A model generated the notes under the pieces. That model was not told the DNA's origin. It saw only the letters and a program-made list of their open reading frames with translations, and ran no database searches. From contig VGHK01000006.1 in the NCBI GenBank assembly GCA_016868305.1, positions 2,573-66,572 of the forward strand: a stretch of DNA of 64,000 nucleotides. The letters run 5' to 3'. Position 1 is the first letter of the stretch; each line of letters opens with the position of its first letter. Position numbers and translations under genes: made by a program. This DNA is from Betaproteobacteria bacterium. GTDB taxonomy: Bacteria > Pseudomonadota > Gammaproteobacteria > Burkholderiales > Burkholderiaceae_A. Positions 2,635 through 48,655 of this stretch are shown in pieces.

Positions 2635-2654
2635 TTGATCTAAAGATCAATAAC
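2635..2654. promoter_or_regulatory. Putative operator, site A (TTGATC-TAAA-GATCAA-TAAC)
   Basis: Perfect inverted repeat in the divergent LLM / dehydrogenase intergenic region; near-copies in four other promoter regions. Confidence 0.6.
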
Positions 2655-2684
2655 AGATTTCCCTTAGACAGAAGGCATATTCTA

Positions 2685-3677
2685 ATGCAGCGCAACAAAT
2701 CAACCGTCGGCGTCGTGGGTCTGGGTATTATGGGGTCTGCCATAGCCTCAAACCTTCAAAAGGCTGGATTTTCAGTCATGGGCAGTGACCCACGGGCTAG
2801 CCAGCGCAAACTCATGGCCTCCAAGATTTCTGTGGTCACGGGCATCAACGCAGAGGTACTGGCCCATAGTCGGCTTCTTATTACCTCGTTGCCGTCGGCA
2901 AAGTCGCTCTTTGCTGTCGCCGAAGAGCTCATAGCAGCGGTCTCTGCGGGGAAACAAAAGTCGAAGGGTCCAGCTGCCATCGTTGCAGAGACAAGCACCC
3001 TGAGCCTGGAAGACAAGGTTTATGCCCGGGATATCTTTGCCAAAGGCAATATTGAGATGCTCGACTGTCCGCTTTCGGGAACGGGTGCCCAGGCTCAGAA
3101 CCGAGACCTAACCGTGTTCGCCAGCGGCTCAGCCACGGGTATCAGGGCATTTATGCCGGTATTTAAGGGCTTCTCAAAGACCCAGTTCAACGTAGGTGAA
3201 TTCGGCAGCGGGATTAAGACTAAATGGGTGGCAAACCTTCTGGTTGCAATTCACAACATCTCCACCGCCGAGGCGCTTTTGTTTGCCCGTGAGCTTGGGC
3301 TCGATATGTCCACGATTGTTGATGTCCTGGCCGATGGGGCCGGGTCTTCGCGCATGCTGCAGATCCGAGGTCCTTCAATGGTGCGTCATAACTGGCAGCC
3401 CGCCGCCATGAAGGTGGGAATATGGAAGAAGGACATGACGATTATCCAGACCGTTTTACAGTCTCTTGATATACCGGCGCCGCTCTTTCAGGCGAGCCTT
3501 CCCATATATGCCGCCGCCATGTCTCAGGGCCTTGAGGCCGACGATACCGCAGCGGTCTTTGAGGTGCTCGAAAGGCTTGCTGGAAAGGTCGCCACCGAAA
3601 AATCTGGCAAGACCGACGGCAAGAGAAGTCCCGCGGGCACGGCTAAGGCCTCCAAGACCAGAAAGTCTTCGACATGA
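2685..3677 (+). CDS. NAD(P)-dependent oxidoreductase, 3-hydroxyisobutyrate/6-phosphogluconate dehydrogenase family
   Basis: GVVGLGIMG Rossmann motif, DCPLSGTG, K..ANLLVA; Lys/Ser-rich C-terminal tail. Confidence 0.88.
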   Translation: MQRNKSTVGVVGLGIMGSAIASNLQKAGFSVMGSDPRASQRKLMASKISVVTGINAEVLAHSRLLITSLPSAKSLFAVAEELIAAVSAGKQKSKGPAAIVAETSTLSLEDKVYARDIFAKGNIEMLDCPLSGTGAQAQNRDLTVFASGSATGIRAFMPVFKGFSKTQFNVGEFGSGIKTKWVANLLVAIHNISTAEALLFARELGLDMSTIVDVLADGAGSSRMLQIRGPSMVRHNWQPAAMKVGIWKKDMTIIQTVLQSLDIPAPLFQASLPIYAAAMSQGLEADDTAAVFEVLERLAGKVATEKSGKTDGKRSPAGTAKASKTRKSST

Positions 3678-4201
3678 AGTATTCCGACTCTATGGCGAAT
3701 CCCTCTGATACAAAAGCCTTTCGAGCCGCGCTGGGACGATTCCCCACTGGGGTTACCATTATTACGGGCAGAGATCCAGATTCTGACGCTGCTGTTGGTC
3801 TTACCGTAAGCAGCTTTAACTCGCTGTCTCTAACGCCTCCGCTGGTACTCTGGTCTATCTCGGTAAAATCGCCAAGTATCAGCGCCTTCACCGTTGGCCG
3901 CGCGCATCTTATTCATGTGCTGCACGCAGGGCAGTCTGAGCTCGCGCGACACTTTGCAACCCCAAAGCCCGATAAGTTTGAGGGTGTGTCTCTTAAGCCC
4001 ACCACCGACCCATCACGTTCGCCTGAGCTATCAGAGAGCTGTGTCGTTTTTGACTGTGTAACCGACAAATTTATCGAGGCCGGCGACCATTTTCTGGTGA
4101 TTGCGTCTGTGCGCCAGTACCGGGGTTGTGATGCCGACTCTTTGCTGTTTTGCAACAGTCAGTTTTTGTCGGTTGATGCACTTTCCAGGATTACCGAATA
4201 G
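3674..4201 (+). CDS. Flavin reductase family protein
   Basis: FRAALGRFPTGVTIIT, GLTVSSFNSLSLTPPLVLWS, AGDHFLVI motifs. Confidence 0.92.
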   Translation: MKYSDSMANPSDTKAFRAALGRFPTGVTIITGRDPDSDAAVGLTVSSFNSLSLTPPLVLWSISVKSPSISAFTVGRAHLIHVLHAGQSELARHFATPKPDKFEGVSLKPTTDPSRSPELSESCVVFDCVTDKFIEAGDHFLVIASVRQYRGCDADSLLFCNSQFLSVDALSRITE

Positions 4202-4378
4202 ACGATTTGGCTCCAGCAATAAATAGCGCCACCGCATCTTCCACTTTTTGGTAAAACCGAGGAAGACTACCGGATTTAAAGATGTTAGACCGGACTGCCC
4301 AATAAAACATGATTCCATGAAGATTCCAGGCTACCTCGATCTCCCGTGGAAGAACTGACTGTAAGTTAGAAAGTCATA

Positions 4379-5614
4379 ATGAAAAGAGCAATCGTGGTTG
4401 GAGGTTCCATGGCTGGACTATTTGCTGCGAATCTGCTTCATCGCAGTGGCTGGCATGTGGATGTCTTTGAGCGGTCAAAGGCTGCGCTATCCGGTCGTGG
4501 TGCAGGAATAGTTACCCACGACGGCCTTTTGTACGCCCTGCAGGCAGCCGGTGCTCAGGTCGATGATGCTCTGGGTGTGGGGATTCATAAGCGACTAGCT
4601 ATATCCAAAGCCGGAGACCCTTTCGCCTACTGCGATTTCGAGCAGGTTCTTACTTCTTGGTCACGTCTTTTAGGCTATCTGAAAGAGGCCTTGCCTGATC
4701 CGCACTACCATTTGGATGAAGAGGTTGTAGAAGTGCAGCCCGGTACTTCTGAGGCATTAGCGCGGGTTACCTTTGCGAGCGGCGAGTCTCTGACTGCCGA
4801 CCTAGTAGTGGCCGCCGATGGCCTGAAGTCGTCTCTTAGGCGTCAGCTTCAGGTCCCGTTTCGCCAGGTCTATGCTGGATATGTTGCCTGGAGGGCCGTC
4901 TGCGACCTGTCGGTGCTCTCGGACAACACGCGGCGGCTTATGGGGGATACCTTTCTCTTCTCCCAGCTTCCCGGAGAGCAGATTCTTGCCTACCCGATCG
5001 CAGGTCCTCAGCGAGCGGATCAGATTCTGGTGAATATGGTCTGGTATCGGCGCACCCCAGAAGACCAGCTCCGAGATCTTCTTACCGATGAACAGGGGGT
5101 CTGGCATAGCGAGGGAATACCTCCCCATAAAATTCGACATTCCCATATCGACAAAATGCGTACCAATGCGGTCGCGCTTTTCCATGCCTCTTGGGCGGAA
5201 CATCTGGAGAAGTCTGATTCCATCATTCTGCAGCCGATATTCGATAGCGAAGTGGAGACGATGGCCACGGGCCGTGTTGCCTTTATTGGTGATGCAGCCT
5301 TTGTAGCCCGGCCCCATGTTGGACAGGGCGTTACGAAGGCAGCAGGAGATGCCCTGTGTCTCGCCAAGACCCTGCGCGACGCAGCCATGGGGGATATTCC
5401 GAAGGCGCTCACGGCCTTCTCCGAGGCGCGTATGCAAGTTGGCCGTATGGCGGTAAACCATGCGAGGCAGATGGGGGCCCCCGTCGTTATCAGTCCTCTG
5501 TTAGAAGATGGATCGCACTGGCAGGCTTATTACTCAGACCCCGAGAACCTTATCCGAGATACCGCTGTAGAGCTTGAGGGTGTGGTGCGCAAAGATGAGG
5601 GAATCCTGCATTGA
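4379..5614 (+). CDS. FAD-dependent monooxygenase, 2,6-dihydroxypyridine 3-hydroxylase (DHPH)-like
   Basis: VVGGSMAG, ERS..LSGRGAGIV, ADG, YAGYVAWR, AYPIAG, NMVWY, GRVAFIGDAAFVARPHVGQG: pattern of the DHPH family. Confidence 0.8.
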   Translation: MKRAIVVGGSMAGLFAANLLHRSGWHVDVFERSKAALSGRGAGIVTHDGLLYALQAAGAQVDDALGVGIHKRLAISKAGDPFAYCDFEQVLTSWSRLLGYLKEALPDPHYHLDEEVVEVQPGTSEALARVTFASGESLTADLVVAADGLKSSLRRQLQVPFRQVYAGYVAWRAVCDLSVLSDNTRRLMGDTFLFSQLPGEQILAYPIAGPQRADQILVNMVWYRRTPEDQLRDLLTDEQGVWHSEGIPPHKIRHSHIDKMRTNAVALFHASWAEHLEKSDSIILQPIFDSEVETMATGRVAFIGDAAFVARPHVGQGVTKAAGDALCLAKTLRDAAMGDIPKALTAFSEARMQVGRMAVNHARQMGAPVVISPLLEDGSHWQAYYSDPENLIRDTAVELEGVVRKDEGILH

Positions 5615-11120: not shown

Positions 11121-13421
11121 TCACAGGGGGCCAAAAGCCGGAGGCGGGATCCTTCGAGATGAGATCTTTTCATAGGCTGAGGCGAGTGCAAATACCTGGG
11201 CCTCGCGGCCTATCTCAGACCGAAACACCAAAGAAAAGGGCAGCCCTGGAGCCGCCAGAGAGGTCATCTTGGTTCCTGACTTGGCCTGGTAAGAACGGCG
11301 GTCTTCGGACAAGCAAAAATCTGCGTCGTAGGCCTCCCGTACAAATCCCGCTGGTACCAAAATCTCGGTTAACCCGGCGTTGGGCCCATGGAAGGATTCG
11401 AAAAAATAGTGCCTGGCAAGCCCCGGCTCTTCGGGGTATCCAATTCTTGCAGGCGGAAGGACAGTATGCACACGCACCAGAGCCTCGAGAGCATTTTCGT
11501 GCAGCACCATCATATCTACCCGCCGAAGCAGTTCACGCAGCATGATCCGCTCGTCGACGCCCTGACGCCCACCGAGAGGATTTCTTGGATCGGTAATCTC
11601 CTCCCAGTTCAAGAAGGCTGCCCTCTGGTCGTCTCCCCAGAAGCTTGAGCGTGCGTTGAGCTGGCGCCAGTCAGAGAGTGTTTCAGAGATGCCCCATCGC
11701 TGCCAGTCTTCTGCTCTACGCCGCAGATACTGGCTGATATGAAGACGAAAGGCGTTGGCCAGAACCTGCTCCTGGACGGTTGCTAGGTCTAAGTTCGACG
11801 GGGGGGCAATCTTGAGATCCGACAGGGCAACCATATAGTCGATGGGGGCCAGATCTCCTGAACCAAAAATCTTTCCAGGCTGGAATTCGGTCGGACGAAT
11901 CGCCTCGGCGAACTCCGGAAAAACCGGTTCTCCGCTGCCGTTAAGCCGGAAGAGAATGTCGGGCATGAAGACAGGAATAAGACGGGCAAGCGCGTCTGTA
12001 AACGAGGTTTGCATCTGCTCTAGGTCAGCATCCGCGCGCCAATGTCTGTGCCAAGACTCTACGAGGTGAAGCCCCAATGTGGTTCCCAGTACCTGTTTAA
12101 TCTCTTGGGAAGCTGCCTGAATGATGGGCCTTACGGCAAGGGTATTCTCAGGGTCAAGCATGGATTCTCGAATAACACCTATGCGCATCCCCCGAATCCC
12201 AGCCATGGTGCTTGGGCTGGCAATAAAAGCCCGAAGCCCCTTCGCGGGGGGGTAGCTGCTCCTCGGAACCGTTGTATAGGGATCGCGCGGATCGTAGTAG
12301 CCCCCAGAGGCATCACGCAAGGCATCGAGAATAACGGCACAGTCATCGAGCGTCTTAGCCATAATGCCGGTTCGGTCACAGTAGATGTCGGCACCGATAG
12401 CGCCGCCATCAAAACCGAGCATGGCCTTGTGTGGCAGGATAAGCGCCGTACTGTTGTGGTTTGAAGGTCCGCGCGTCGACATGCGCGTCTCTTCACCAAG
12501 GCTCGCCATGACCATGTTGGTTGACACAGATACAGCCGACCCAGCACTTGATCCAAGCGATGCGGACCGCGCGGTGTCATAGGGGTTGGCAGGATTGCCT
12601 CCCCAGGTAGACCGTTGATAGCCCGAAACCGATGGAAGTACTTTCTGGGGTCTGTGTGCACCCCCAGGATCTCCGGCACGGCCGTTGTACTCGGTCATCA
12701 CAGCCTTGGCGAAGATGATGGCACCCTTCTCGCGTAGCCGCTCCACCAGTTGGTGGTCCCGCGCGGGAAAGTCGACATCGAACCGTGCGTCGGCGCCGCC
12801 TGTCGACCGCATGTCCTTGGTATCGAAGGCATCCTTGAAAGAAAAGACAACCCCGTACAAGGGCATTTTCTCGAGGTCGGGATTCTGGCCGTAGGTCTCG
12901 TCGAGGGCCTGTGCCTGCTCCAGGGCATCGGGATAGCGTCGAAAGATCTCGCACACCGCCGGTGCCCCCTCGGGCAAAGGCCCCGCATCTGAGTGCCGAT
13001 CAAAATCGCCTCTGCAGACGACAGACCGTTCCCCTCGGATATTGAGGGTCGAAAGCGCGTTTACCTGCCCACTGGCTGGGTCTCCAACCATCATTCCGTA
13101 CTGCTGCACGACCGACGGGTCTGCTGCCGTCGGCCGCATCTCGCCAAACTCGATGTTGGGGCCGAGATATTCATCGAGAGATGGAAGCACAGATCGGGCA
13201 CTGACCGTTTGCTTGGGGAAACGTAAAGGTCTACCGGCCCTGACCGTTCCTTGGACCTGATCTACGGGTGCGCCATCGCTAGTAACCAATAGACCCGACG
13301 GGCCATTAAAGGCCCGAACCCGATCGATATATTCGCGGACCACCGCGACACAGCTTGTTTCGCCCCGCTGTATCGCGGCATGGAGGTCTTTAATCGAAGA
13401 CTCAAAAACAGAAAACGCCAT
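11121..13421 (-). CDS. Amidase-signature family protein, unusually long (766 aa)
   Basis: FSFKDAFD (catalytic Lys), GSSAGS (cis-Ser), GEETRMSTRGP (nucleophile Ser); C-terminal PFSLVF...VFALASAYE. Confidence 0.85.
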   Translation of the reverse strand: MAFSVFESSIKDLHAAIQRGETSCVAVVREYIDRVRAFNGPSGLLVTSDGAPVDQVQGTVRAGRPLRFPKQTVSARSVLPSLDEYLGPNIEFGEMRPTAADPSVVQQYGMMVGDPASGQVNALSTLNIRGERSVVCRGDFDRHSDAGPLPEGAPAVCEIFRRYPDALEQAQALDETYGQNPDLEKMPLYGVVFSFKDAFDTKDMRSTGGADARFDVDFPARDHQLVERLREKGAIIFAKAVMTEYNGRAGDPGGAHRPQKVLPSVSGYQRSTWGGNPANPYDTARSASLGSSAGSAVSVSTNMVMASLGEETRMSTRGPSNHNSTALILPHKAMLGFDGGAIGADIYCDRTGIMAKTLDDCAVILDALRDASGGYYDPRDPYTTVPRSSYPPAKGLRAFIASPSTMAGIRGMRIGVIRESMLDPENTLAVRPIIQAASQEIKQVLGTTLGLHLVESWHRHWRADADLEQMQTSFTDALARLIPVFMPDILFRLNGSGEPVFPEFAEAIRPTEFQPGKIFGSGDLAPIDYMVALSDLKIAPPSNLDLATVQEQVLANAFRLHISQYLRRRAEDWQRWGISETLSDWRQLNARSSFWGDDQRAAFLNWEEITDPRNPLGGRQGVDERIMLRELLRRVDMMVLHENALEALVRVHTVLPPARIGYPEEPGLARHYFFESFHGPNAGLTEILVPAGFVREAYDADFCLSEDRRSYQAKSGTKMTSLAAPGLPFSLVFRSEIGREAQVFALASAYEKISSRRIPPPAFGPL

Positions 13422-13548
13422 AGTGCATAATTTCCTTAGTGATTAAATGATAAACAGCATTTCTGGGTTTGCAAGTAAGAAATTCACCAATAGCAGTTCG
13501 CCGACGGGTGTGGTTCACTAGTCTCATCTCACAGGAGGGTTTACGCGA

Positions 13549-14319
13549 ATGCCTACCATTACACATGCCTTAGGAACAACCGACTACGAGCGCGCGGGAC
13601 CAGCAGGGCAGCGCCCGCTTGTCTTGTTTCATACGCTACTGGCAGACCGGAGCGTCTACGATGGAATCTTTCCGGTGCTTGCCAAGAGTCGTGACGTGGT
13701 CCGTTTCCAGTTTCCAGGGTTTGGAGACTCGGTGGGATCCTGCCAGTCTGTTGATGACTATGCGCTGTGGACTATTTCTTTTCTGCGAGCTCTCAATCTG
13801 GGCCAGCCAGCCGAGGTCTTTTCGAACGGTTTTGGCGGCTTTGTTTCGGTGGGGGTTACTAGCAAGACGCCCGAGTTGGTTTCGCGGCTCACCATTGCCA
13901 ATAGTGGGGCGGCTTTTCCTGAAGAACGCAAGCCCCCTTTGCTGAAAATGGCAGAGGCGGTCGAGACCAAGGGGGTCGCTGCCGTGTTGGATACGGCAAT
14001 TTCGAGGATGTTTCCCGAGGACTTTGCGAAGTCGCATCCCGAGATCGTCGCCCAGCGCAAGGCGGCCCTTGCAAAGACCAATCCAAAGCAGTTTGCGGCG
14101 GCCTGTCGGGCCCTTTCGCAGCTTGACTATCGTGAGGCGGCCAAGAGCATTACGCGGCCAGTGCGTGTGGTTGCTGGGCTTGACGATGCCACCACGCCTC
14201 CTGCTATGTCGCAAGAGTTACATGCGCTTGTTGCGGGCTCCAGTTATTCCGAGATCGCCGACTGTGGGCATTGTCCGCAGATTCAGCAGCCCGATAAAGT
14301 ACTTGCACTTCTCGCCTAG
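13549..14319 (+). CDS. Alpha/beta hydrolase (enol-lactonase-like)
   Basis: FPGFGDS, SNGFGG at the elbow position, GLDDATTPP, CGHCPQIQQP. Confidence 0.8.
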   Translation: MPTITHALGTTDYERAGPAGQRPLVLFHTLLADRSVYDGIFPVLAKSRDVVRFQFPGFGDSVGSCQSVDDYALWTISFLRALNLGQPAEVFSNGFGGFVSVGVTSKTPELVSRLTIANSGAAFPEERKPPLLKMAEAVETKGVAAVLDTAISRMFPEDFAKSHPEIVAQRKAALAKTNPKQFAAACRALSQLDYREAAKSITRPVRVVAGLDDATTPPAMSQELHALVAGSSYSEIADCGHCPQIQQPDKVLALLA

Positions 14320-14413: not shown

Positions 14414-15643
14414 ATGACCCAGGACAACCTTATCGAGGTAATCACCGAAAACAAGCTCCCGCATTACGAGCCCTATGGCTGGCATCACTGGCCGGAGCAC
14501 CCTTGGCTGGCGTATCAGTTTCGCCGGGGGCTCGGCGAGACGCAGGAGGGAGGTGGTGCTGTCAGCGAGGTGTTTCAGGCAGCAAGCCGTATGATCCCTG
14601 GCGATCTAGAGAGCTGGCACAAAGAATGGAAGTACATTGCCGACAGGAACTGGAACCGAGGCGTGGAGGCCGAGGGCCGTGGCCATATACGCACCGCCAT
14701 GAACTGTTTTTTAAGAGCGGCAGACTACTACCGACAGGCGGAGTTCTATCTCAAGCCAGACGATCCTCGCAGGCTGCCCACCTTCGAAAAGATGGAGGCC
14801 TGTAGCCATCGGTTCATTGGGCACTTAAATCCTGCTGGTCAGGTGGTAGATATTCCCTATGAAAACGGTGTGCCGCTATGCGCGTATTTCGTCCGTTCGC
14901 CATACCCTACTGCGAAACAACCCGTTCTGATCTGCATGGGTGGGCTTGATTCGATTAAGGACGAGATGTGGTTTATGCAGGCAAGGGGAGCGCTCCAGCG
15001 CGGAATCGCTGTGCTCATGATTGATGGTCCAGGACAGGGGGGTACGCTCCGCAGGCATAAGGTTCCCAACCGAGTAGACACAGAGGTACCTATCGGAAAG
15101 TGTATCGACTGGCTTGCGTCTCGGCCAGACATAGATGCCAGTCGTATCGCGGTCTGTGGATCGAGCCTTGGGGGCTATTATGCGGCGCGGGCGGGGTGCT
15201 ATGAGCATCGCCTCGCGGCCTGTATCGCCCACGGAGCCATCTGGGCGATTACCGACCTATGGGGGGAGGCCTCTGAAGACCACGGACTAGCCGAGCACAT
15301 TAAATGGGTCTTCGGGTGTGATTCGATGAAGTCCGCGATGGTGAAAGCCAAAGCCTTCACCCTGGAAGGGCACTTAGACCACATGCGCTGCCCGTTTCTT
15401 GTCATGCATGGTGGCCACGACGTGCTTACGGTGTCTCAGGCCCAAAAAGTCTACGACTACGGAAGGGCCAAGGGTAAAGATGTCACGCTTCGGCTTTTAA
15501 GCGAGGAGGAGACCGGGGCGGAGCACTGTCAGCATGACAACCCAACCATCGGCCAGGAGATTCTAGGAGACTGGCTCGCTGATCGATTCGGTATCGATCA
15601 GCGAGCCCTGCTTCAGTCGGGCCAAACGCCCTTTGCTCTCTAG
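14414..15643 (+). CDS. Alpha/beta hydrolase, FrsA / 2,6-dihydroxypseudooxynicotine hydrolase family
   Basis: GGLDSIKDE, IDGPGQG, GSSLGGYYA, GAEHCQ. Start set at ATG 14414 with AAGGA upstream. Confidence 0.8.
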   Translation: MTQDNLIEVITENKLPHYEPYGWHHWPEHPWLAYQFRRGLGETQEGGGAVSEVFQAASRMIPGDLESWHKEWKYIADRNWNRGVEAEGRGHIRTAMNCFLRAADYYRQAEFYLKPDDPRRLPTFEKMEACSHRFIGHLNPAGQVVDIPYENGVPLCAYFVRSPYPTAKQPVLICMGGLDSIKDEMWFMQARGALQRGIAVLMIDGPGQGGTLRRHKVPNRVDTEVPIGKCIDWLASRPDIDASRIAVCGSSLGGYYAARAGCYEHRLAACIAHGAIWAITDLWGEASEDHGLAEHIKWVFGCDSMKSAMVKAKAFTLEGHLDHMRCPFLVMHGGHDVLTVSQAQKVYDYGRAKGKDVTLRLLSEEETGAEHCQHDNPTIGQEILGDWLADRFGIDQRALLQSGQTPFAL

Positions 15644-16776
15644 AGCTTGATCTTAAAGAGCTTCTGCGCGTTTCCACCCGTGATGAGCTTCTTATCTGCT
15701 TGAGAAAGCTTCGGCACGGCGGAGATTAGTCCTAAGGGATCAAACTCCGCCATGTCGTACGGATAGTCGGTGCCAAGCATGACGTGATCAGCGCCAAACC
15801 GCCGGATAAGGCTTTGCAGCATATACGGATCAAAGGTGATGGTGTCGAAGTAAAACTTCTCAAGGTACTTCGATGGCTTGACTGTAATTACAGAGCGAAC
15901 GTCGGGGCGTTTGTGGCCATGGTCCATGCGCGCCCAATAGTGAGCGAGATAACCCCCTGCGTGGGCAAGAATGATTTTTAATCGGGGATAGCGCTTCATT
16001 ACGCCATCAAAGATGAGATGGCTCACGGCTACCGTGGTTTCTAAGGGATTGCCAATAATGTTATTGAGGTAGTGGTCGGTAAGGCGTTGGCCGTGGCTAA
16101 ACCCATTCGGGTGCATGAAGAGCACCACACCAAGTTCCTGTACCTTGGCGAAAAAAGCCTCAAGCTTAAGGCTCGGGTCCGTCAAGTCTTTGCCGTTCAC
16201 ATTGGTGCCGATTTCGATACCTTTGAAACCCAGGACTTTGACCGCACGCTCTAGTTCCTTAACTGCAAGGTCGCTGTTTTGCAGCGGCACTGTGCCCATA
16301 GCCATAAGACGCTTTGGGTGATCAGCAACGATCTTTGCGATGCCGTCATTCACGCTTTTTGCGAGTTCAAGTCCGAAGTCCGGTTCGGCAAAGTAGTAGT
16401 ATTGAAAAGGGGCGGGCGCGACCACCTGCAGGTCCACTCCCATCTTGTCCATTTCCTTGAGCCGGGTGGGGATGTCAGAGAGCATAGGTCCCCGTTCACG
16501 CATCTGCTTGACGTTCACATCACGGGTGAAATCATTCGAGAAAATATTGGTGAACTCCTTTTGGGCCGGATCAATGGCCGCCGCCTTTGCCGCAACGGCC
16601 GGATTGAAGTAGTGGCAGTGGATGTCGATGACGGGAGAACCAGACCCTTTAGCCTTTGCGGATTTGGGTCGGGCCGCTGCATCCGCCCTTGCGCCACTTT
16701 TTGTTGCCAGCGGCATCGATGCGCGTCTGTGGCGGTGACGGGGGTTATTGCAGCCAATGGAACAGGTAAAAAGCAT
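15640..16776 (-). CDS. Amidohydrolase-2 family (ACMSD/LigW-like decarboxylase or hydratase)
   Basis: IDIHCH, FMHP, AHAGG, GTDYP metal-binding motifs; AAGGAGA SD before the ATG at 16776. Confidence 0.88.
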   Translation of the reverse strand: MLFTCSIGCNNPRHRHRRASMPLATKSGARADAAARPKSAKAKGSGSPVIDIHCHYFNPAVAAKAAAIDPAQKEFTNIFSNDFTRDVNVKQMRERGPMLSDIPTRLKEMDKMGVDLQVVAPAPFQYYYFAEPDFGLELAKSVNDGIAKIVADHPKRLMAMGTVPLQNSDLAVKELERAVKVLGFKGIEIGTNVNGKDLTDPSLKLEAFFAKVQELGVVLFMHPNGFSHGQRLTDHYLNNIIGNPLETTVAVSHLIFDGVMKRYPRLKIILAHAGGYLAHYWARMDHGHKRPDVRSVITVKPSKYLEKFYFDTITFDPYMLQSLIRRFGADHVMLGTDYPYDMAEFDPLGLISAVPKLSQADKKLITGGNAQKLFKIKL

Positions 16777-16830
16777 CGCTTCGTCTCCTTGGAAAATAAT
16801 CTGTACCGACTGTACCTGAAGCCCATCTTC

Positions 16831-16850
16831 TTAATCAATCGATTAATAAG
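16831..16850. promoter_or_regulatory. Putative operator, site B (TTAATC-AATC-GATTAA-TAAG)
   Basis: Perfect inverted repeat with the same spacing as site A, in the divergent amidohydrolase / CocE region. Confidence 0.5.
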
Positions 16851-30648: not shown

Positions 30649-30834
30649 GTTGTCTCCTTTTAGGGGTAATTGTCTACTGCATGCTGAAGCTCTAAATTAT
30701 CAATTCTTTAATAGCGATATGGCAACCCTTTTCTTGTGCAGATGGAGCGTACGCTGTCGTATGCCTATTCCAGACTGCAAACCTAGGGAAAATGCTAGTA
30801 ACGGTCTTGGGTAGTTCGGCCGTTAAATCACCTT

Positions 30835-30854
30835 GTTATTGATCAACTAATCAG
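30835..30854 (-). promoter_or_regulatory. Putative operator, site C (reads CTGATT-AGTT-GATCAA-TAAC on -)
   Basis: Shares GATCAATAAC exactly with site A; in the divergent CocE2 / dctP2 region. Confidence 0.45.
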
Positions 30855-30948
30855 CCAAAGATGGACCCTTCTTATCTGCAGGTAAATGTTCTTGCCCCGA
30901 TTGCACTAGAGGCCTTTTGCTCGCCTCGAGCGTAGGGATCGCAGTTCG

Positions 30949-34180: not shown

Positions 34181-34224
34181 ATTAGCCCCGACTGGGCGTC
34201 GCGTTTTCAAGAGGAGTTGGCAAG

Positions 34225-35253
34225 ATGAAGGCAGCTTGGTATGAGAGGCAGGGTCCCGCTAGTGAGGTTATTCGATATGGCGAGCAGCCCAGCCAGCCGC
34301 TTGGAGAACAGGATGTGCGACTTCGCCTTGCGTTTTCTGGACTCAATCCATCCGATCTAAAGCGTCGAATGGGGTTCAATGGCCAGCCGCATGCCTTTCC
34401 ACTCATCATTCCCAACAGCGACGGGTCCGGGACAGTTCTCGAGGTTGGCGCCAAGGTAAAAGACTTTCGCTTGGGCGACCGCGTCTGGGTTTTTAATGCC
34501 CAGTGGAAAAGGCCCTTTGGCACTAATGCAGAAGAGATCGTTCTGCCGTCGCATCTTGTAAGGCACTTGCCTGAAAACGTGAGCCTTGCTTATGGCGCCT
34601 GCGTTGGCATACCTGCCCTCACGGCCCATCGTGCACTTTTTGCCGATGGATCAATTGAGGGTAAGGTTATTCTGGTGCATGGGGGTGCTGGGTCGGTGGG
34701 GAACTGTGCAATTCAGCTGGCCCGGTGGGCCGGAGCCACTGTGGTCTCTACGGTGAGTTCTGACGAGAAGGCAGAGGCGGCATCAAAGGCGGGTGCAGAC
34801 CAGGTAATTAACTACAAGCGTGAAGACGTCTCTGAAAAGATTTTGTCAAGTACAGACGGCCAGGGAGTAGACCGAATTGTAGAAGTGGCCTTTGGTGAAA
34901 ACCTGCCAATTACGCTAAAAGTACTAAAACCGCATGGGGTTATTTCTTGCTATGCATCAGATCGTCAGCCGACCCCCGCGTTGCCTTTCTATCCTTTCAT
35001 GATGAAGAACCTGACGCTTCGCTGGGTCTTCATGTACGAACTGTTACCCCTAGATCTTCGCGCTGCATTGTCCGATATAAACCTCTGGCTCTCTGGTAAG
35101 TCGCCTGATACGGCGACGCCGCCTCCTATGACAAAGCCCGCCATCGTGTATGAACACATCGATCGAATATTTTCTCTCACTCAGACCGGCGAAGCTCACC
35201 AGTATCTCGGGTCTGGAATCGCAACGGGCAATGTCCTTATTGATGTTCAATAG
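34225..35253 (+). CDS. NADPH:quinone reductase (MDR / zeta-crystallin family)
   Basis: GLNPSD.K, PNSDGSG, VHGGAGSVG, DRIVEV. Confidence 0.88.
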   Translation: MKAAWYERQGPASEVIRYGEQPSQPLGEQDVRLRLAFSGLNPSDLKRRMGFNGQPHAFPLIIPNSDGSGTVLEVGAKVKDFRLGDRVWVFNAQWKRPFGTNAEEIVLPSHLVRHLPENVSLAYGACVGIPALTAHRALFADGSIEGKVILVHGGAGSVGNCAIQLARWAGATVVSTVSSDEKAEAASKAGADQVINYKREDVSEKILSSTDGQGVDRIVEVAFGENLPITLKVLKPHGVISCYASDRQPTPALPFYPFMMKNLTLRWVFMYELLPLDLRAALSDINLWLSGKSPDTATPPPMTKPAIVYEHIDRIFSLTQTGEAHQYLGSGIATGNVLIDVQ

Positions 35254-42017: not shown

Positions 42018-42041
42018 GCAATGTTCGGGTTCTCTGGCTTT

Positions 42042-42060
42042 ATTATCAGATGATCAATAA
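42042..42060. promoter_or_regulatory. Putative operator, site D (ATTATC-AGAT-GATCAA-TAA)
   Basis: Same spacing and right half-site as site A; upstream of the VOC-qor pair. Confidence 0.5.
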
Positions 42061-44122: not shown

Positions 44123-45490
44123 CTACTTGTTTGAGAAGACATACTCTGGAAGCCAGGTTGCAATAGATGGAATAAACCAGATGGTAATGACCACAATAAG
44201 CAGGCATAACCAGTAAGGAATCGAGTATCGGAATATCTGACCTACAGTGATCTCGTTAGGGGGCAGGGAGGCCTTTACCGTGAATACAAGTATGCCGAAT
44301 GGGGGGGTAAGTAAGCCCGACTCGATTGCCAGAATGCCAATCATGGCAAAGGCTATGGGGTCCATGCCCGCTGCATGGGCCACCGGCGCAAACACCGGTA
44401 CCGTGATAAGGATAATTGAGATCGAATCGATGAGGCAGCCCAGGACAAACCAAATAGCTACCATAATCAAAATAATCGCCCAGAGATCGAGTCCCGAGTC
44501 AACAAAGATGGTCTGAATGGCACCGGTGATTCCTGTCATAGACAATACCCGAGAGTAAAGCTGGGCACAGAACAGGAGCAGTAGCAAAGGCGCTGAGGTG
44601 CGCCCAACCTGCAGCACGACTTCTCTGATCTCGGAAAATCGAACTCCGCGAATGATTGCGACTACCAGTGCAGAGGCGGCGCCAACGCCCGCGCCTTCGG
44701 TTGGCGTGAACGCACCCATCCATATGCCTCCGAGAATGAAGGCTACGAGCCCCAAGACCAGAACCGTGCCCACTATGGCGCGACCGAGGCTTTCATCCAA
44801 TTGCTCTGACGTAGACTCTTGCTTGGGCTCAGCAGTCTGCATTGGCTGAATCGTTCCAGGGCCTGCACCGACAATGTGGGGCTTAGTGACAGCGGTGAAA
44901 ACAATATAGACGCAGAACAAAAGCGCAAGGAGCAGCCCCGGGCCGACCCCTGCTAAAAACAGCTGGCCGATAGACTGCTCGGTAAGTACCCCCCATACGA
45001 TCATGAGCACGCTAGGGGGAATAAGCATCCCTAGGCACGAGCTACCGGCGATACATCCGGCCGAGAAGCCCTTGTCGTATCCGGCACGGCGCATTTCAGG
45101 ATAGGCGATTCTCGAGAAGGCGGCAGCAGCGGCAATACTGACACCCGTGACGAAGGCAAACAGGGCATTGGCGCCTACAGTGGCAAGACCAAGACGCCCC
45201 GGTAGGAATGCGAGCCCTTTGTTTATTAGGGTGAAAATATCCCGGGCGGCACCACTCTGGGCAAGAAACCCCCCCATGAGCAGGAACAGCGGAATAACCG
45301 CAAATACATAGTCGCGCAGCGCCTCATAGGCTGTACTTGAGATGAAGTTAAAGACAACTCCCCAGTCGCCGACCATAAGAAATGCGCCCAAGACCGCCGT
45401 TGTACCGAGCGCAACGGCGATATGCACTCCGGTGAGAGTAAGCAGTAGAACCGTGCCAATTACCACGACCACTTGAAAAGTACTGAACAT
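44123..45490 (-). CDS. dctM: TRAP transporter large permease
   Basis: VIPLFLLMG, GVSIAAAA, LGMLIPPS, LTPPFGILVF. Confidence 0.92.
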   Translation of the reverse strand: MFSTFQVVVVIGTVLLLTLTGVHIAVALGTTAVLGAFLMVGDWGVVFNFISSTAYEALRDYVFAVIPLFLLMGGFLAQSGAARDIFTLINKGLAFLPGRLGLATVGANALFAFVTGVSIAAAAAFSRIAYPEMRRAGYDKGFSAGCIAGSSCLGMLIPPSVLMIVWGVLTEQSIGQLFLAGVGPGLLLALLFCVYIVFTAVTKPHIVGAGPGTIQPMQTAEPKQESTSEQLDESLGRAIVGTVLVLGLVAFILGGIWMGAFTPTEGAGVGAASALVVAIIRGVRFSEIREVVLQVGRTSAPLLLLLFCAQLYSRVLSMTGITGAIQTIFVDSGLDLWAIILIMVAIWFVLGCLIDSISIILITVPVFAPVAHAAGMDPIAFAMIGILAIESGLLTPPFGILVFTVKASLPPNEITVGQIFRYSIPYWLCLLIVVITIWFIPSIATWLPEYVFSNK

Positions 45491-45523
45491 AGCAAGAGCC
45501 TTTAGCGGGAGGAGATTGCAGCG

Positions 45524-46048
45524 TTAGTGGCTTGACGCCTTGAAAAAGTCTTCTGAGTGCGTGGGGTTCACAAGAGCCCGCAGGGCATGCCATGACAAGA
45601 TAAGATATTGGGTAATGGCCAGGGCAGAACCGATGACCACCATAAATCGGGCGGGCCAGCTCGGGATGCGTAATGCCCCCTCTCCCTCAAACTCGCCAGA
45701 TACCCACGATCTTGCGGCGAGGTCTAGCCCGCCATAAAAAATAATGAAGAAAAATCCAACACCAAGCAATGACCCAAAGAGAGACACCAACGCCTTAGGC
45801 CGAGTAGAAAGGCGCGTTACAAAGACATCTACCGCGATCATGCCACCCGAGCGAATCGCATAGGCGGCCTGCAGGAAGCATATAAGGACGACCGACGCCT
45901 CTACCATCTCCTTGGTGCCCTTCACGGGGCTTAGAAAGATGCCGCGCCCAATGACGTCGGCCACAATTAGGAAAGAAATAAGCAGGGCCAATGATGCGCC
46001 AATGACGAGAAACGACTTTATGACCCAGTTGTTCGTTGCTTCAAACAT
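45524..46048 (-). CDS. dctQ: TRAP transporter small permease
   Basis: ADVIGR, G.I.VDV, P.WP.R; start set at ATG 46048 (AGGA upstream). Confidence 0.85.
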   Translation of the reverse strand: MFEATNNWVIKSFLVIGASLALLISFLIVADVIGRGIFLSPVKGTKEMVEASVVLICFLQAAYAIRSGGMIAVDVFVTRLSTRPKALVSLFGSLLGVGFFFIIFYGGLDLAARSWVSGEFEGEGALRIPSWPARFMVVIGSALAITQYLILSWHALRALVNPTHSEDFFKASSH

Positions 46049-46080
46049 CGGCGTAATCCTGTCTTGAGAAGAAAACAAAT

Positions 46081-46115
46081 GGGCCTTCAGGCAACCGGAA
46101 GCTGCATGAAGGCCC
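46081..46115 (-). terminator. Intercistronic hairpin between dctP and dctQ (stabiliser or partial terminator)
   Basis: GGGCCTTCA / TGAAGGCCC stem followed on - by ATTTGTTTTCTTCT. Confidence 0.55.
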
Positions 46116-46140
46116 AGGAGAAGATTCGTTACACCAAGAG

Positions 46141-47223
46141 CTACTGAATCTTATAGCGAACGGGCCACTTATGGCCGGCTTTTTCGGCCTCTTCCAGGGT
46201 GGCCTTCAAAACCTGGCTCGCAGGTAATCCCTGCTTGTCCAACGAGCTAGCCATTTCTTGGGGCCATCCGGCCAAAGAGTTGGCCCATTCGAGCCGAACC
46301 GATGGGGGCACTGCGGTTATCTGGGTTCCGAGTTCCTTTAGCTGAGCGATCTGCTTGGGGTAGTTCTCTTGGTTTACCTTACCCGTGCGAAGCTCGTATT
46401 CACGAGCAACTTCGGCAATGATAGCCTGCACGTCTTTGGGCAGTGCATCCCAGCGGCGCTTATTAATGGTGAGCCCGTGCCAGGTAATCGACCCGAAGCC
46501 AATCTCGGTGTAATACTTACCTTGTTCGTAGAGCTTAAAGTTTACCCATGCTGAAGGAAACATAATCCAGCCGTTGTAGACCCCGGTTTGCATACCCTGG
46601 TAGGCCTCGTTTAGGGTTCCTTGCACGGGGATGGCCCCAACATACTCAAGCCATTTCAGGTTTAGGCCTGCTCCAGCAAGCTTAACGCCCTTGAGATCGG
46701 AAACCGATTTCCAGGGCATTGTGGTTCCCAGGTTGTAGCCGTTGTCTGCGATGATTCCCAGAAGCTTCTGGTTCCATTTTTCCTCAAAGACATTCGACAG
46801 GTATGGCACCCTGTTGTATACCGCCCGCGCAACCTTCAGGCTCATTTCCGCATCCATGGTGCCAAAGGGCAGCATTACCTGGAAGGCATGCAGAGGCAGG
46901 TTGGAGGGCTCAAAGCAGAAACAGAATGCGCCCAGATCGATAATGCCGGACTGCACGCCCTCAAGGGTGTCGGGCAGCTTTACCATCGCACCACCATAGC
47001 CCTCGATAAAGTTAATGGTGTGGGGGGTACGCTCTTTCACCCTTTTGGTAACTTCCGGAACAAAGAAGGTATTTAAGAGGTTGACATAGGTGTTCACGAC
47101 AGGGTGACCCGACGCGATTCGCATTGTGATGTTCTCGGCCTTCTGGGCGTGAGCCGCGCCCGTACCGAGAAGCCCCACCATCGCGCTTATTGCGACAAAA
47201 AGGCCTAGTTTCTTAAATTTCAT
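46141..47223 (-). CDS. dctP: TRAP substrate-binding protein (third, unrelated to paralogs 1 and 2)
   Basis: Signal peptide; EAYQGMQTGVYNG; start set at ATG 47223 behind GGAGGAG. Confidence 0.85.
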   Translation of the reverse strand: MKFKKLGLFVAISAMVGLLGTGAAHAQKAENITMRIASGHPVVNTYVNLLNTFFVPEVTKRVKERTPHTINFIEGYGGAMVKLPDTLEGVQSGIIDLGAFCFCFEPSNLPLHAFQVMLPFGTMDAEMSLKVARAVYNRVPYLSNVFEEKWNQKLLGIIADNGYNLGTTMPWKSVSDLKGVKLAGAGLNLKWLEYVGAIPVQGTLNEAYQGMQTGVYNGWIMFPSAWVNFKLYEQGKYYTEIGFGSITWHGLTINKRRWDALPKDVQAIIAEVAREYELRTGKVNQENYPKQIAQLKELGTQITAVPPSVRLEWANSLAGWPQEMASSLDKQGLPASQVLKATLEEAEKAGHKWPVRYKIQ

Positions 47224-47349
47224 GGTTGGAACTCCTCCGTAAGAATAGACATCAAGATATGAAACGACACTGGAGAGTTTTTGCTTGACCGCTCTCTGCG
47301 TCAATTAGGGTTAGTAAGGGGAAAAGGGTTTGTCGCGCTGATCATTTGA

Positions 47350-48573
47350 TTAGCAGACTACCTGTCGTTCTCCATTGTGGGTGACCGCCACCTGTGCCGG
47401 AAGTTTCGAGCTAAGCGCGGCGTGCAAATAGCAGGTATTGGCAGAGATGGCGAGCAGTCGTTGCATCACTGAGTCGTCTTCTTCACCGTGCAGGAATAGA
47501 TGGGTATCCACAGGCGAGGCCTGCCCCGCAAGGCCACCGTGCGCGTCGCTATGGAGACCGAAGGGGTTGAACTGCACAAGTCGAATTGCCCGCACCTTGT
47601 ACTTCAGGTATTCGGCGTACCGAAGCAGCTGGGTCATGTAACAAAAAGCGATTCCCGCAGAGAGCAGGGCAAGACCAGAGGGCGCAGTGGGGCTGGCTAA
47701 CGCATTCTCGTGGCTAAGGAAAGAAAACTCGCTGCCCGGGGGAGCCTTCAAGGTGGTTTGAATTGTGGTCTGTCCTTTGCCAAGGGTAAGAGCCGACCGC
47801 CCAAGAACCTCCAGCCCAAATCGCGTAGAAGCGGAGGGCATTGCCTCGTTTGGCGGAATGTAGTCAGAGGTTTTCGAGATCAGATTTGTGGCATCTTGCC
47901 CATCTGCAACCGGCCGGGGCGGGCCCGCCCGCGACTTTAAGGGGTCTTGCGCATCTGGGGCCTCGGAGGCCTTGGCTCCGGTGACCTCACGACGTATGCC
48001 ATTGACATACAGCGCAAAGGTACAGTCCAGGGGGTGTGCCATTGCTGCAAGCGCGCACGATTGCCGCACTGCGTCATGGATGAGCGATGCGGCCAGCTTC
48101 GCGGTGCAGTTTCCCTGGCTGACGATTTCGATCTCAGCAGGTGCGGCCTCTCCCTGGCCTGTGCCAGCATAAAAGGACCCACTGAAGGCATATCGGTTGA
48201 TCAGGGTCTGACTTACGGAAGACAAAGGAGTTCCGCGCGAGAGGTTAAGCCGGTCTATGGCACCGAGAAGATCGGCCTGAAGCCCGGCGTTAAAAAACCC
48301 CAAAGGAAAGGGCGCAAGGTCAGAGCCTTTGAGCTGCGGGCCTTCGTCGCTCACGACCCGCCAGCGGGGGCCGTTGGTGCCCTCGGAGATAACCGCCTCT
48401 TTCTGATGGGCTCCCAAGGCACGCGCCTCGACCTTAAGACAAGCGGCATCGGGAGCCCCTTCGAAGAGCCTGGGGCGGTCGGACTGGCGATGCACGCAAA
48501 AAGCGAGAGGATGTCCAGAGGATTGGATGCTATCTTCCACTTCAATCAATGCGGGCTCCTTGCTGCGTTGCAT
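47350..48573 (-). CDS. Tandem two-domain OsmC/Ohr-like protein
   Basis: Two repeats of an SDE..L.G...AP.P..AG..C pattern; the C-terminal domain has AFCY and NTCY cysteines. Confidence 0.7.
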   Translation of the reverse strand: MQRSKEPALIEVEDSIQSSGHPLAFCVHRQSDRPRLFEGAPDAACLKVEARALGAHQKEAVISEGTNGPRWRVVSDEGPQLKGSDLAPFPLGFFNAGLQADLLGAIDRLNLSRGTPLSSVSQTLINRYAFSGSFYAGTGQGEAAPAEIEIVSQGNCTAKLAASLIHDAVRQSCALAAMAHPLDCTFALYVNGIRREVTGAKASEAPDAQDPLKSRAGPPRPVADGQDATNLISKTSDYIPPNEAMPSASTRFGLEVLGRSALTLGKGQTTIQTTLKAPPGSEFSFLSHENALASPTAPSGLALLSAGIAFCYMTQLLRYAEYLKYKVRAIRLVQFNPFGLHSDAHGGLAGQASPVDTHLFLHGEEDDSVMQRLLAISANTCYLHAALSSKLPAQVAVTHNGERQVVC

Positions 48574-48637
48574 ACCGTGAGGGTACTAGAGAAGGCACTA
48601 TTCAACCTGTTATGTTCGTCATATGATTACACCAGTA

Positions 48638-48655
48638 ATTATCAAAAGATCAATA
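48638..48655. promoter_or_regulatory. Putative operator, site E (ATTATC-AAAA-GATCAA-TA)
   Basis: Half-sites identical to site D; in the divergent OsmC-TRAP / cupin region, immediately before the cupin SD. Confidence 0.5.

What the first reader, a model, noticed from the sequence alone, without database searches (positions are those of the whole stretch)
2635..48655. One inverted-repeat operator recurs in five promoter regions: a cluster-wide regulon whose regulator is absent from the window
Seen: TTGATC-TAAA-GATCAA-TAAC (2635), TTAATC-AATC-GATTAA-TAAG (16831), CTGATT-AGTT-GATCAA-TAAC (minus strand, 30835-30854), ATTATC-AGAT-GATCAA-TAA (42042) and ATTATC-AAAA-GATCAA-TA (48638). All are intergenic, four in divergent promoter regions, with the same 4-nt spacer and TA 3' flank. 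Weaker candidates are ATGATC-AGTC-GCTCAT (47-62) and GTGATT-AAAT-GATAAA (13439). Established: the FNR box is TTGAT-N4-ATCAA, whereas this motif is TTGAT-N6-ATCAA, so it is not an FNR site. Inference: one dimeric transcription factor encoded outside 0-50 kb coordinates at least eight transcription units. This is the best sequence evidence that the cluster is a single system.
Basis: partly seen in the sequence, partly recalled or inferred. Interest (0 to 1): 0.75.

Follow-up and report, generated by a model that had tools for sequence, protein, structure and literature searches.

The report
TetR-type operator regulon on catabolic island
A 22-bp palindromic DNA site recurs in six promoter regions of a 50-kb breakdown-gene island in a freshwater Burkholderiales genome. 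It is most likely the binding site of an uncharacterised TetR-family repressor, whose in-island gene survives here only as a broken relic, so this is an ordinary kind of regulation in a new family.

Summary
Five of the seven intergenic hits of at least 14 bits lie in the island, which holds 1.9% of intergenic DNA (p = 5e-8).

The full element is a 22-bp palindrome, TTATTkATC-N4-GATmAATAA. It is conserved in the orthologous promoters of six congeners while the flanks diverge. In about a dozen other Burkholderiales lineages the same palindrome lies between a luciferase-like monooxygenase gene and a 3-hydroxyisobutyrate-dehydrogenase-like gene, next to one particular TetR-family gene. That gene is the only recurrent regulator there.

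In five congeners this gene (TetR-A) is intact inside the island. In this window only a relic remains at 4126-4355 (minus strand), with the DNA-binding part deleted. A 60%-identical paralogue (TetR-B) with an identical recognition helix lies on another contig. The sites are still under selection, so TetR-B probably controls them now.

"Regulator absent" is only half right, and the motif does not prove a single pathway. This is a new member of a known kind, of modest interest.

The parts
2632..2653 (.). Operator S1, CTGTTGATCTAAAGATCAATAA. It lies between the luciferase-like monooxygenase gene (1414-2541, minus strand) and the operon of the 3-hydroxyisobutyrate-dehydrogenase-like and flavin reductase genes (2685-4201, plus strand).
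   Evidence: Best hit in the whole genome with the matrix trained on other genera, 29.9 bits. It is 100% identical in 7 species while the flanks vary. The same position is occupied by the palindrome in other genera.
4126..4355 (-). Relic of the in-island TetR-family regulator gene (TetR-A). It covers residues ~161-239 only and carries a frameshift and an in-frame stop. The N-terminal DNA-binding domain is deleted.
   Evidence: tblastn with congener TetR-A gives 70% identity over 51 aa plus a second piece. The intact 240-aa gene sits at the same position in G004, G007, G012 and G026 and in G022.
4362..4383 (.). Decayed counterpart (TAAGTTAGAAAGTCATAATGAA) of the strong operator TAATTTAGAAAATGATAAATAA. 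In congeners that operator fills the 25-nt gap between TetR-A and the FAD monooxygenase gene. Here it overlaps the ATG at 4379.
   Evidence: The G004 site scores 26.4 bits. Sequences are compared. The own version scores below 9 bits.
13436..13457 (.). Operator TTAGTGATTAAATGATAAACAG, between the amidase gene (11121-13421, minus strand) and an alpha/beta hydrolase gene (13549-14319, plus strand).
   Evidence: 21.3 bits, third-best intergenic hit in the genome. Orthologous sites in G004 (17.8 bits) and G012 (24.6 bits) keep the half-sites while the spacer differs.
16828..16849 (.). Operator S2, TTCTTAATCAATCGATTAATAA. It lies between the amidohydrolase_2 gene (15640-16776, minus strand) and the long operon that starts with CocE/S15 hydrolase a (16977 onward, plus strand).
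   Evidence: Conserved in five congeners inside a ~47-nt conserved block. Only 11 bits with the foreign matrix.
30836..30857 (.). Operator S3, TTATTGATCAACTAATCAGCCA. It lies between the operon of CocE/S15 hydrolase b and the OYE-type reductase (27784-30648, minus strand) and the DctP2 gene (31017, plus strand).
   Evidence: 15.7 bits. G004 has a site (16.0 bits) directly upstream of the OYE gene, although it lacks hydrolase b.
30693..30714 (.). Possible weak second site, TAAATTATCAATTCTTTAATAG, in the same intergenic region. It overlaps a promoter-like TTGCCA-18-GATAAT on the minus strand.
   Evidence: 9.9 bits; promoter scan. Weak, and may be chance.
42039..42060 (.). Operator S4, TTTATTATCAGATGATCAATAA. 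It starts 22 nt after the stop of the Ldh_2 gene and ends 93 nt before the ATG of the operon of the glyoxalase-fold and Zn-dehydrogenase genes (42153 onward, plus strand).
   Evidence: 20.2 bits. 21 of 22 positions identical in G008. An orthologous site occurs in G004.
48635..48656 (.). Operator S5, GTAATTATCAAAAGATCAATAG. It lies between the operon of the hydrolase-OsmC fusion and a TRAP transporter (44123-48573, minus strand) and the cupin gene (48666, plus strand). It overlaps the cupin gene's ribosome-binding site.
   Evidence: 23.7 bits, second-best hit in the genome. 22 of 22 positions identical in G008 despite indels in the flank.

Best explanation
**What it is.** The recurring element is the operator of an uncharacterised clade of TetR-family transcription factors. 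It is a 22-bp palindrome, TTATTkATC-N4-GATmAATAA. Most copies have one strong and one weaker half-site.

**Shown.**
- The sites are real and statistically exceptional.
- They are restricted to promoter regions and conserved in orthologous promoters.
- Across many Burkholderiales lineages they lie beside this TetR gene and its core gene set: a luciferase-like monooxygenase, a 3-hydroxyisobutyrate-dehydrogenase-like enzyme, a flavin reductase, an FAD monooxygenase and a PuuE-like deacetylase, often with a Liv-type ABC transporter.
- In this genus the regulon has grown to six sites on the island, plus one on contig C5 and a weaker one beside TetR-B on C12.
- The in-island regulator gene is a relic in this genome, and a paralogue with an identical recognition helix exists on contig C12.
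- The operators have stayed conserved since the relic lineage split.

**Inferred.**
- A TetR dimer sits on each operator in the short divergent promoter regions. It blocks RNA polymerase in both directions.
- A catabolic substrate or intermediate binds the C-terminal domain and releases the repressor. The ligand is unknown; an N-heterocycle, lactam or amide is suggested by the enzymes.
- In this genome the paralogue TetR-B has taken over the sites.
For: **Statistics.**

**Conservation within the genus.** In orthologous promoters of G004, G007, G008, G012, G022 and G026, conservation drops outside the site. This is clearest at the C5 site.

**Link to the TetR gene.**
- In the genus, TetR-A/B genes and the motif occur in the same 7 of 30 genomes.
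- The candidate proteins carry a TetR_N domain (E = 4e-14).
- In 80 loci found with the TetR alignment, 27 of 38 intergenic regions that hold the start of a core gene carry TTNATC-N4-GATNAA at 9/10 or better. Only 21 of 369 other intergenic regions do.
- No other regulator family recurs in those loci.
- In congeners a 26-bit site fills the gap between TetR-A and the FAD monooxygenase gene.

**Relic and paralogue.**
- The relic is documented.
- The recognition helix SQPLLYRYF is identical in TetR-A and TetR-B.
- G000 and G008 both lack an intact TetR-A. Between them the sites are identical at 107 of 110 positions, against 79% in the 60-nt flanks (p = 1.5e-8).

**Architecture.** The geometry matches the verified RutR consensus TTGACCAnnTGGTCAA (PMC2475637).
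Against: - No binding or expression data exist.
- The 80 loci were chosen by TetR homology. Motif-with-TetR therefore cannot be separated from motif-with-core-enzymes.
- Within the genus, the island, the motif and the TetR genes all share one phyletic pattern.
- A strong site directly upstream of the TetR gene itself is seen in only 5 of 71 loci. Four of these are the own genus's TetR-A and the fifth is a single other lineage (L180).
- TetR-B has no ATG, GTG or TTG start before its DNA-binding domain. It would need a CTG start, although that codon is conserved in six species.
- S2 fits the foreign matrix poorly, at 11 bits.
- No consensus sigma-70 promoter could be placed at the sites. The occlusion geometry is therefore inferred.
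Confidence: 0.75

Rival explanations
1. The palindrome is the operator of a different, unidentified dimeric transcription factor encoded elsewhere in the genome. The TetR gene travels with the enzyme genes but binds something else.
For: The link between regulator and motif rests on co-localisation only. Most TetR homologues lack the site in their own upstream region. Phyletic patterns cannot separate the regulator from the island.
Against: No other regulator family recurs near the motif in 80 loci. None lies in the island or its left flank. A 26-bit site sits exactly at the TetR-A start in congeners. The 16-22-bp even palindrome with TTGA-N8-TCAA geometry is that of the TetR-family regulator RutR.
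Confidence: 0.13
2. In this genome the regulon is orphaned. After TetR-A was lost no protein binds the sites, the island is expressed constitutively, and the operators are recent leftovers.
For: TetR-A is a relic. The operator in the TetR-A/FAD-monooxygenase gap has decayed. TetR-B lacks a canonical start codon. Its adjacent site is weak in this genome.
Against: G000 and G008 both lack TetR-A, yet they keep 107 of 110 site positions against 79% in the flanks. TetR-B is an open frame without stops. It is 77-94% identical across six species, and its CTG and Shine-Dalgarno sequence are conserved.
Confidence: 0.1
3. The element is not a protein operator. It is a chance recurrence, a leftover of promoter duplication between paralogous genes, or an RNA hairpin in the leaders.
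For: S2 and S3 precede paralogous CocE hydrolase genes, and S1 and the C5 site precede paralogous dehydrogenase genes. The perfect palindromes S1 and S2 fold modestly as RNA (z = -2.8 and -3.5).
Against: Chance is excluded. S4, S5 and 13436 have unrelated flanks. Conservation across genera is confined to the motif. S3, S4, S5 and 13436 do not fold (z = -1.2 to +0.7). The variable third position of the two arms shows no covariation: 12 mixed against 11 matched pairs. There is no Rfam match. Sites occur in both orientations.
Confidence: 0.02

Closest known systems
RutR and the rut (pyrimidine utilisation) operon of Escherichia coli
   Same: RutR is a TetR-family regulator with a 16-bp even palindrome of the same geometry, TTGACCAnnTGGTCAA (TTGA-N8-TCAA; PMC2475637). 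It controls a catabolic gene set that also contains a luciferase-like monooxygenase (RutA) and a flavin reductase (RutF). One regulator has many sites.
   Different: This is not an orthologue. The NCBIfam RutR models score 24-29 bits against cut-offs of 230-368. The half-site is TTkATC, not TTGACC, and the palindrome extends to 22 bp. The partner enzymes differ (dehydrogenase, FAD monooxygenase, PuuE-like deacetylase, hydantoinase-type pair). The ligand is unknown.
TetR/tetO and QacR-type local repressors
   Same: The gene for an N-terminal helix-turn-helix repressor sits beside its targets. Palindromic operators lie inside short divergent promoter regions. The expected mode of action is release of the repressor by a ligand.
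   Different: Those systems control one or two promoters of an efflux gene. Here six or more operators are spread over a 50-kb catabolic island, with others elsewhere. In this genome the local regulator gene is destroyed, and a paralogue acting from another locus is the likely regulator.
FNR/CRP-family boxes (TTGAT-N4-ATCAA; TGTGA-N6-TCACA)
   Same: The half-site letters TTGAT/ATCAA resemble the FNR box, and the site is dyad-symmetric.
   Different: The spacing is two bases longer (TTGAT-N6-ATCAA). In other genera the half-site is often TTTATC, and the flanking TTA/TAA is conserved. No CRP/FNR gene travels with the motif.

Membership tests
TetR-family repressor/operator system | The candidate regulator has the N-terminal TetR-type helix-turn-helix domain. 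| tested here: met
   Pfam TetR_N matches TetR-A (E = 4e-14) and TetR-B (E = 7e-14). PDB hits are TetR-family proteins, matched over the N-terminal domain only.
TetR-family repressor/operator system | The operator is a short (about 15-30 bp) dyad-symmetric sequence in the promoter regions of the target genes. | tested here: met
   The operator is a 16-bp core / 22-bp palindrome, and all strong sites are intergenic and next to gene starts.
TetR-family repressor/operator system | The regulator gene is encoded next to its target genes. | tested here: met
   This holds in five congeners and about a dozen other lineages. In the window itself only a relic of the gene remains.
TetR-family repressor/operator system | The protein binds the operator directly and is released by a small-molecule ligand. 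| not testable with these tools
   This needs gel-shift or footprinting assays and ligand assays.
RutR (pyrimidine utilisation regulator) equivalog | Full-length match above the curated cut-off, and the TTGACCAnnTGGTCAA box. | tested here: not met
   TIGR03613 scores 24.7 and 29.4 bits against a cut-off of 368. PRK15008 scores 25.9 bits against 230. The half-site differs from RutR's at positions 5-6.
FNR/CRP box | TTGAT-N4-ATCAA (FNR) or TGTGA-N6-TCACA (CRP) spacing and half-sites. | tested here: not met
   The sequence shows TTGAT-N6-ATCAA, and TTTAT variants are common in other genera.
LysR-type regulator box (the two LysR genes at 56206 and 62667) | T-N11-A dyad of odd length, usually next to the LysR gene. 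| tested here: not met
   The dyad has even length and is centred between two bases. The LysR genes lie in the core-genome part of the window without sites nearby. LysR genes occur in only 2 of the 80 motif-bearing loci.

The most novel reading that the evidence does not exclude
This could be a case of regulator replacement. The island's own repressor gene was deleted in the ancestor of this species and G008. A paralogue encoded elsewhere, translated from a conserved non-canonical CTG start, then took over a regulon of at least eight operators. In congeners that keep both paralogues, the same operators may integrate two different ligand signals.
Probability: 0.4. Interest if true: 0.45.

Novelty: new member of a known kind. 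Interest (0 to 1): 0.35.

Why it matters
This work gives a testable regulon, an operator consensus and a named candidate regulator for a large catabolic island of unknown substrate. The island occurs in streamlined freshwater Burkholderiales that are known only from metagenomes.

The operator map shows which of the roughly 45 island genes are co-controlled and which are not. It also links the island to two loci on other contigs: a dehydrogenase/2-oxoglutarate oxygenase pair, and a Liv-type ABC transporter next to TetR-B.

The conserved core gene set next to the TetR gene in other genera narrows the search for the substrate. A ligand screen on the TetR protein could identify it.

The principle itself, a TetR repressor with palindromic operators on catabolic genes, is textbook.

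Tried and rejected
- **Cyanobacterial origin or Dam-site explanation.** GCGATCGC is not enriched (72 copies against about 50 expected). GATC is not the conserved feature, because other genera use GATAAA.
- **A regulator among the window's genes or in the left flank.** About 55 ORFs were scanned against Pfam. Only two LysR genes turned up, both in the core-genome part at 56-64 kb, and nothing at C6:1-2572.
- **High-scoring hits at C13:12951, C31:21987 and C15:41343.** These lie inside long genes and are coding or chance matches.
- **Hits in other genus members** (G010, G013, G024, G028). These are also coding.
- **Strict pattern scan of 400 genomes of the order.** It gave only scattered hits, mostly inside long open frames. 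The strict pattern misses the TTTATC/GATAAA variants.
- **Sigma-70 promoter scan at the five sites.** Nothing reached the threshold, apart from one promoter-like match 110 nt from S3. A TTGATC-N17-TACGAT promoter for the monooxygenase gene that overlaps S1 is my own reading, at 8 of 12 matches.
- **Autoregulatory site upstream of TetR homologues in general.** Found in only 5 of 71 loci.
- **Reciprocal loss of the flavin reductase and TetR-A genes.** This was my own error, caused by a crude ORF caller, and was corrected. The reductase gene is present in all congeners.
- **Candidate site at 47-62.** It scores -0.8 bits.
- **C9:55106.** It lies between convergent gene ends and is probably chance.
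- **Literature search.** No paper with this operator or gene set was found.
- **Earlier notes of this scan.** None bear on the regulator.
Full report
**1. The observation**

ORF and Pfam scans give the layout of the window.
- Positions 1-50 kb form a catabolic island of about 45 genes. It holds a luciferase-like monooxygenase (LLM), a 3-hydroxyisobutyrate-dehydrogenase-like gene (3HIBDH), a flavin reductase and an FAD monooxygenase. It also holds a hydantoinase A/B pair, an amidase, several alpha/beta hydrolases, two CocE/S15 hydrolases and GSTs. Further genes are three TRAP systems, a CoxSML-type molybdenum hydroxylase, an OYE reductase, Ldh_2, a glyoxalase-fold protein and a cupin.
- The island contains no intact transcription factor gene.
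- Positions 50-64 kb are core genes (ispH, recG, two LysR regulators).
- The island has about 54% G+C, against 58.4% for the 2.26-Mb, 97-contig genome.
- Four sites lie between divergent genes. The fifth (42042) lies between co-directional genes.

**2. More than chance**

- In the window the pattern with up to 2 mismatches occurs 7 times against 2.3 expected, and no shuffle reaches 7.
- Genome-wide, 5 of the 20 intergenic matches are in the island.
- In leave-one-out scans each site ranks directly behind the four training sites among all intergenic positions.
- The scan found a sixth full site at C5:38110, TTAATCTTTCGATCAATAAG. It lies between a paralogous 3HIBDH-like gene and a 2-oxoglutarate/Fe(II) oxygenase gene.

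The strongest test uses a matrix that owes nothing to this genome. It is a 22-nt matrix built from 23 sites of other genera (see section 4). Scanned over the whole genome, its six best intergenic hits are five island sites and the C5 site:

| Position | Score (bits) |
|---|---|
| window 2632 | 29.9 |
| window 48635 | 23.7 |
| window 13436 | 21.3 |
| window 42039 | 20.2 |
| window 30836 | 15.7 |
| C5:38110 | 14.4 |

Five of the seven intergenic hits of at least 14 bits lie in the island, which holds 1.9% of intergenic DNA (binomial p = 5e-8). Shuffled island intergenic DNA gives 0.02 hits on average. The candidate at 47-62 scores -0.8 bits and is dropped.

**3. Conservation in the genus**

A pattern scan of 60 relatives found the same sites in six of the 29 other species of the genus: G004, G007, G008, G012, G022 and G026. 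Hits in other genus members lie inside genes.

Alignments of the orthologous intergenic regions show the following.
- S1 is identical in seven species, inside a 34-nt conserved block.
- S2 is conserved inside a roughly 47-nt block.
- At the C5 site, conservation is confined to about 22 nt while the flanks have diverged into two groups.
- S4 and S5 are conserved between this genome and G008 despite indels next to them.

The island of G004 is syntenic with the window and carries sites at the corresponding places. One sits directly upstream of the OYE gene, although the second CocE gene is absent there. The 28.9-35.3 kb segment of the window is missing from G004, so the island is mosaic.

**4. 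The regulator**

I screened all ORFs of the genome and of the congeners' island contigs with seed sequences of common regulator families. This found a TetR-family gene about 1.5 kb from S1 in G004, G007, G012 and G026; one search adds G022. The gene, here called TetR-A, is 240 aa long. It lies between the flavin reductase gene, which it overlaps convergently, and the FAD monooxygenase gene.

In this genome tblastn finds only its C-terminal third, at window 4126-4355 on the minus strand. That piece is 70% identical over 51 aa, then carries a frameshift and an in-frame stop. The part encoding the DNA-binding domain is deleted. In G008 the gap is only 65 nt.

A 60%-identical paralogue, TetR-B, lies at C12:55951-56634. 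It sits between a BKACE-family gene and a Liv-type ABC transporter operon. It is 77-94% identical in G008, G007, G004, G022 and G026. Both proteins match Pfam TetR_N. Their predicted recognition helix, SQPLLYRYF, is identical. Neither reaches any NCBIfam equivalog cut-off, including RutR and BetI, and PDB hits cover only the N-terminal domain.

A scan of one genome per species with the A/B alignment returned 80 loci. They come from freshwater Burkholderiales MAGs labelled Polaromonas, Rhodoferax, Limnohabitans, Ramlibacter, Rubrivivax and others, plus a few Alphaproteobacteria. This also identifies the window's organism as a freshwater Burkholderiaceae MAG.

These loci share a common neighbourhood:
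- FAD monooxygenase (leftward);
- TetR (rightward);
- flavin reductase (leftward);
- 3HIBDH (leftward);
- the palindrome;
- LLM (rightward);
- a PuuE-like deacetylase.

In several loci a further site precedes a Liv-type ABC operon.

Of 38 intergenic regions that hold the start of an LLM, 3HIBDH or flavin reductase gene, 27 carry TTNATC-N4-GATNAA at 9/10 or better. Of 369 other intergenic regions, 21 do. Those 21 include recurrent sequences that look like further sites. The consensus is the 22-bp palindrome TTATTkATC-N4-GATmAATAA. No other regulator family recurs in the 80 loci: LysR appears in 2, AsnC in 1 and LuxR in 1.

In the congeners a 26-bit site, TAATTTAGAAAATGATAAATAA, fills the 25-nt gap between TetR-A and the FAD monooxygenase gene. 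This is consistent with autoregulation. In this genome and in G008 that site has decayed.

**5. Is the regulon still alive here?**

This genome and G008 both lack an intact TetR-A. Over S1, S2, S4, S5 and the C5 site they are identical at 107 of 110 positions. The 60-nt flanks are 79% identical (481 of 612; p = 1.5e-8). The sites have therefore stayed under purifying selection since these species split, which calls for a regulator acting from another locus.

TetR-B is the obvious candidate. It has the same recognition helix and an intact reading frame. A site lies next to it, between its stop and the ABC operon. That site is strong in congeners (19 bits in L111) and weaker here (C12:55833, TTTATCGCCTGATCAC, 9/10).

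One oddity is that TetR-B has no ATG, GTG or TTG before its DNA-binding domain in any of six species. A CTG preceded by a Shine-Dalgarno-like AAGRGG is conserved instead.

**6. Mechanism**

Shown: the position and symmetry of the sites.
- The sites sit in short divergent promoter regions. S1 lies 91 nt from the LLM start and 32 nt from the 3HIBDH start. In other genera the whole region is about 70-140 nt long.
- Some sites lie right at a gene start. The 13436 site is 15 nt from the amidase start. S5 overlaps the cupin gene's ribosome-binding site.

Inferred from what is established for the TetR family: a dimer on each operator blocks initiation or elongation in both directions, and a small-molecule ligand releases it.

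At S1 the minus strand reads TTGATC-N17-TACGAT, and the TACGAT is invariant in seven species. This could be the LLM promoter, with its -35 box and spacer inside the operator. It scores only 8 of 12 and did not pass the promoter scan. No consensus promoters were found at the other sites.

**7. Rivals**

- *RNA hairpin.* Not supported. Only the two perfect palindromes fold (z = -2.8 and -3.5). S3, S4, S5 and 13436 do not. The variable third position of the two arms is mixed in 12 foreign sites and matched in 11, so there is no covariation. There is no Rfam match.
- *Promoter duplication.* This could explain S2/S3 and S1/C5, which precede paralogous genes. It does not explain S4, S5 or 13436, nor the motif-only conservation across genera.
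- *A different regulator.* This cannot be excluded. The loci were picked by TetR homology. In the genus the island, the motif and the TetR genes share one phyletic pattern: LLM orthologues occur in the same seven genomes, plus a fragment in G013. Only 5 of 71 TetR homologues have a strong site at their own upstream end.
- *An orphaned, constitutive regulon.* This is contradicted by the conservation.

**8. Comparison and novelty**

The closest characterised system is RutR of E. coli. It is a TetR-family regulator with a 16-bp box of the same geometry, TTGACCAnnTGGTCAA (PMC2475637). It controls a gene set that also has an LLM and a flavin reductase. The present proteins are not RutR orthologues, and the box differs.

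Full-text searches found no paper describing this operator or gene set.

This is a new member of a well-known kind. The points of some interest are the size of the regulon in a streamlined genome, the relic of the local regulator gene, the probable takeover by a paralogue, and that paralogue's conserved CTG start.

**9. Verdict**

- Confidence that the sites are a selected DNA operator is about 0.9.
- Confidence that the TetR clade binds it is about 0.75.
- Confidence that TetR-B is the acting regulator in this genome is about 0.55.
- Interest is 0.35.

Noticed in passing
G000 contig C12:55951-56634 (minus strand); orthologues in L097-L101: In six species the TetR-B paralogue has no ATG, GTG or TTG before its helix-turn-helix domain. 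A CTG codon 6-7 nt after an AAGRGG Shine-Dalgarno-like sequence is conserved instead. This suggests non-canonical CTG initiation.
   Followed up: partly
Just left of the window: contig C6:2433-2508 (window -139 to -64), minus strand: A tRNA-Thr(CGT) gene flanks the left end of the island. The island has about 54% G+C against 58.4% for the genome. This is compatible with an island acquired at a tRNA gene. No integrase or direct repeats were looked for.
   Followed up: no
window 30949-30986: A 15-bp perfect stem with a G-rich loop, GGCAATGTGTCGCTCACCGGGGGGGGCGATACATTGCC, followed by a T-rich tail. It lies in the 370-nt intergenic region upstream of DctP2, oriented as a terminator-like element on the plus strand ahead of the gene.
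   Followed up: no
window 50060-51961 (minus strand): A 633-aa ORF at the right edge of the island has no Pfam match, even at E = 0.01.
   Followed up: partly
window 2586-2611 and 16850-16875: Further blocks conserved across the genus lie next to S1 (CCTARCGAAATCCCGRTATACAAC) and S2 (GCAAGGGTTTCTACCACTCCAAGA). They are not part of the palindrome. S3 shares CAAGG...ACTMCCAAGA with S2. They could be promoter or leader elements of the paralogous CocE operons.
   Followed up: partly
window 28894-35253, compared with G004 contig C73: The segment holding the second CocE hydrolase, DctP2, a hydrolase, an aldo-keto reductase and a Zn-dehydrogenase is absent from the otherwise syntenic island of G004. 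In G012 the island is rearranged and includes the 3HIBDH/2-oxoglutarate oxygenase pair that lies on contig C5 here.
   Followed up: partly
L112-L116 and G000 C12:50600-55756: A Liv-type ABC transporter operon (Peripla_BP_6 binding protein, two permeases, ATPase) follows a palindrome site both in the core clusters of other genera and next to TetR-B in this genus. It may be the uptake system for the unknown substrate.
   Followed up: partly
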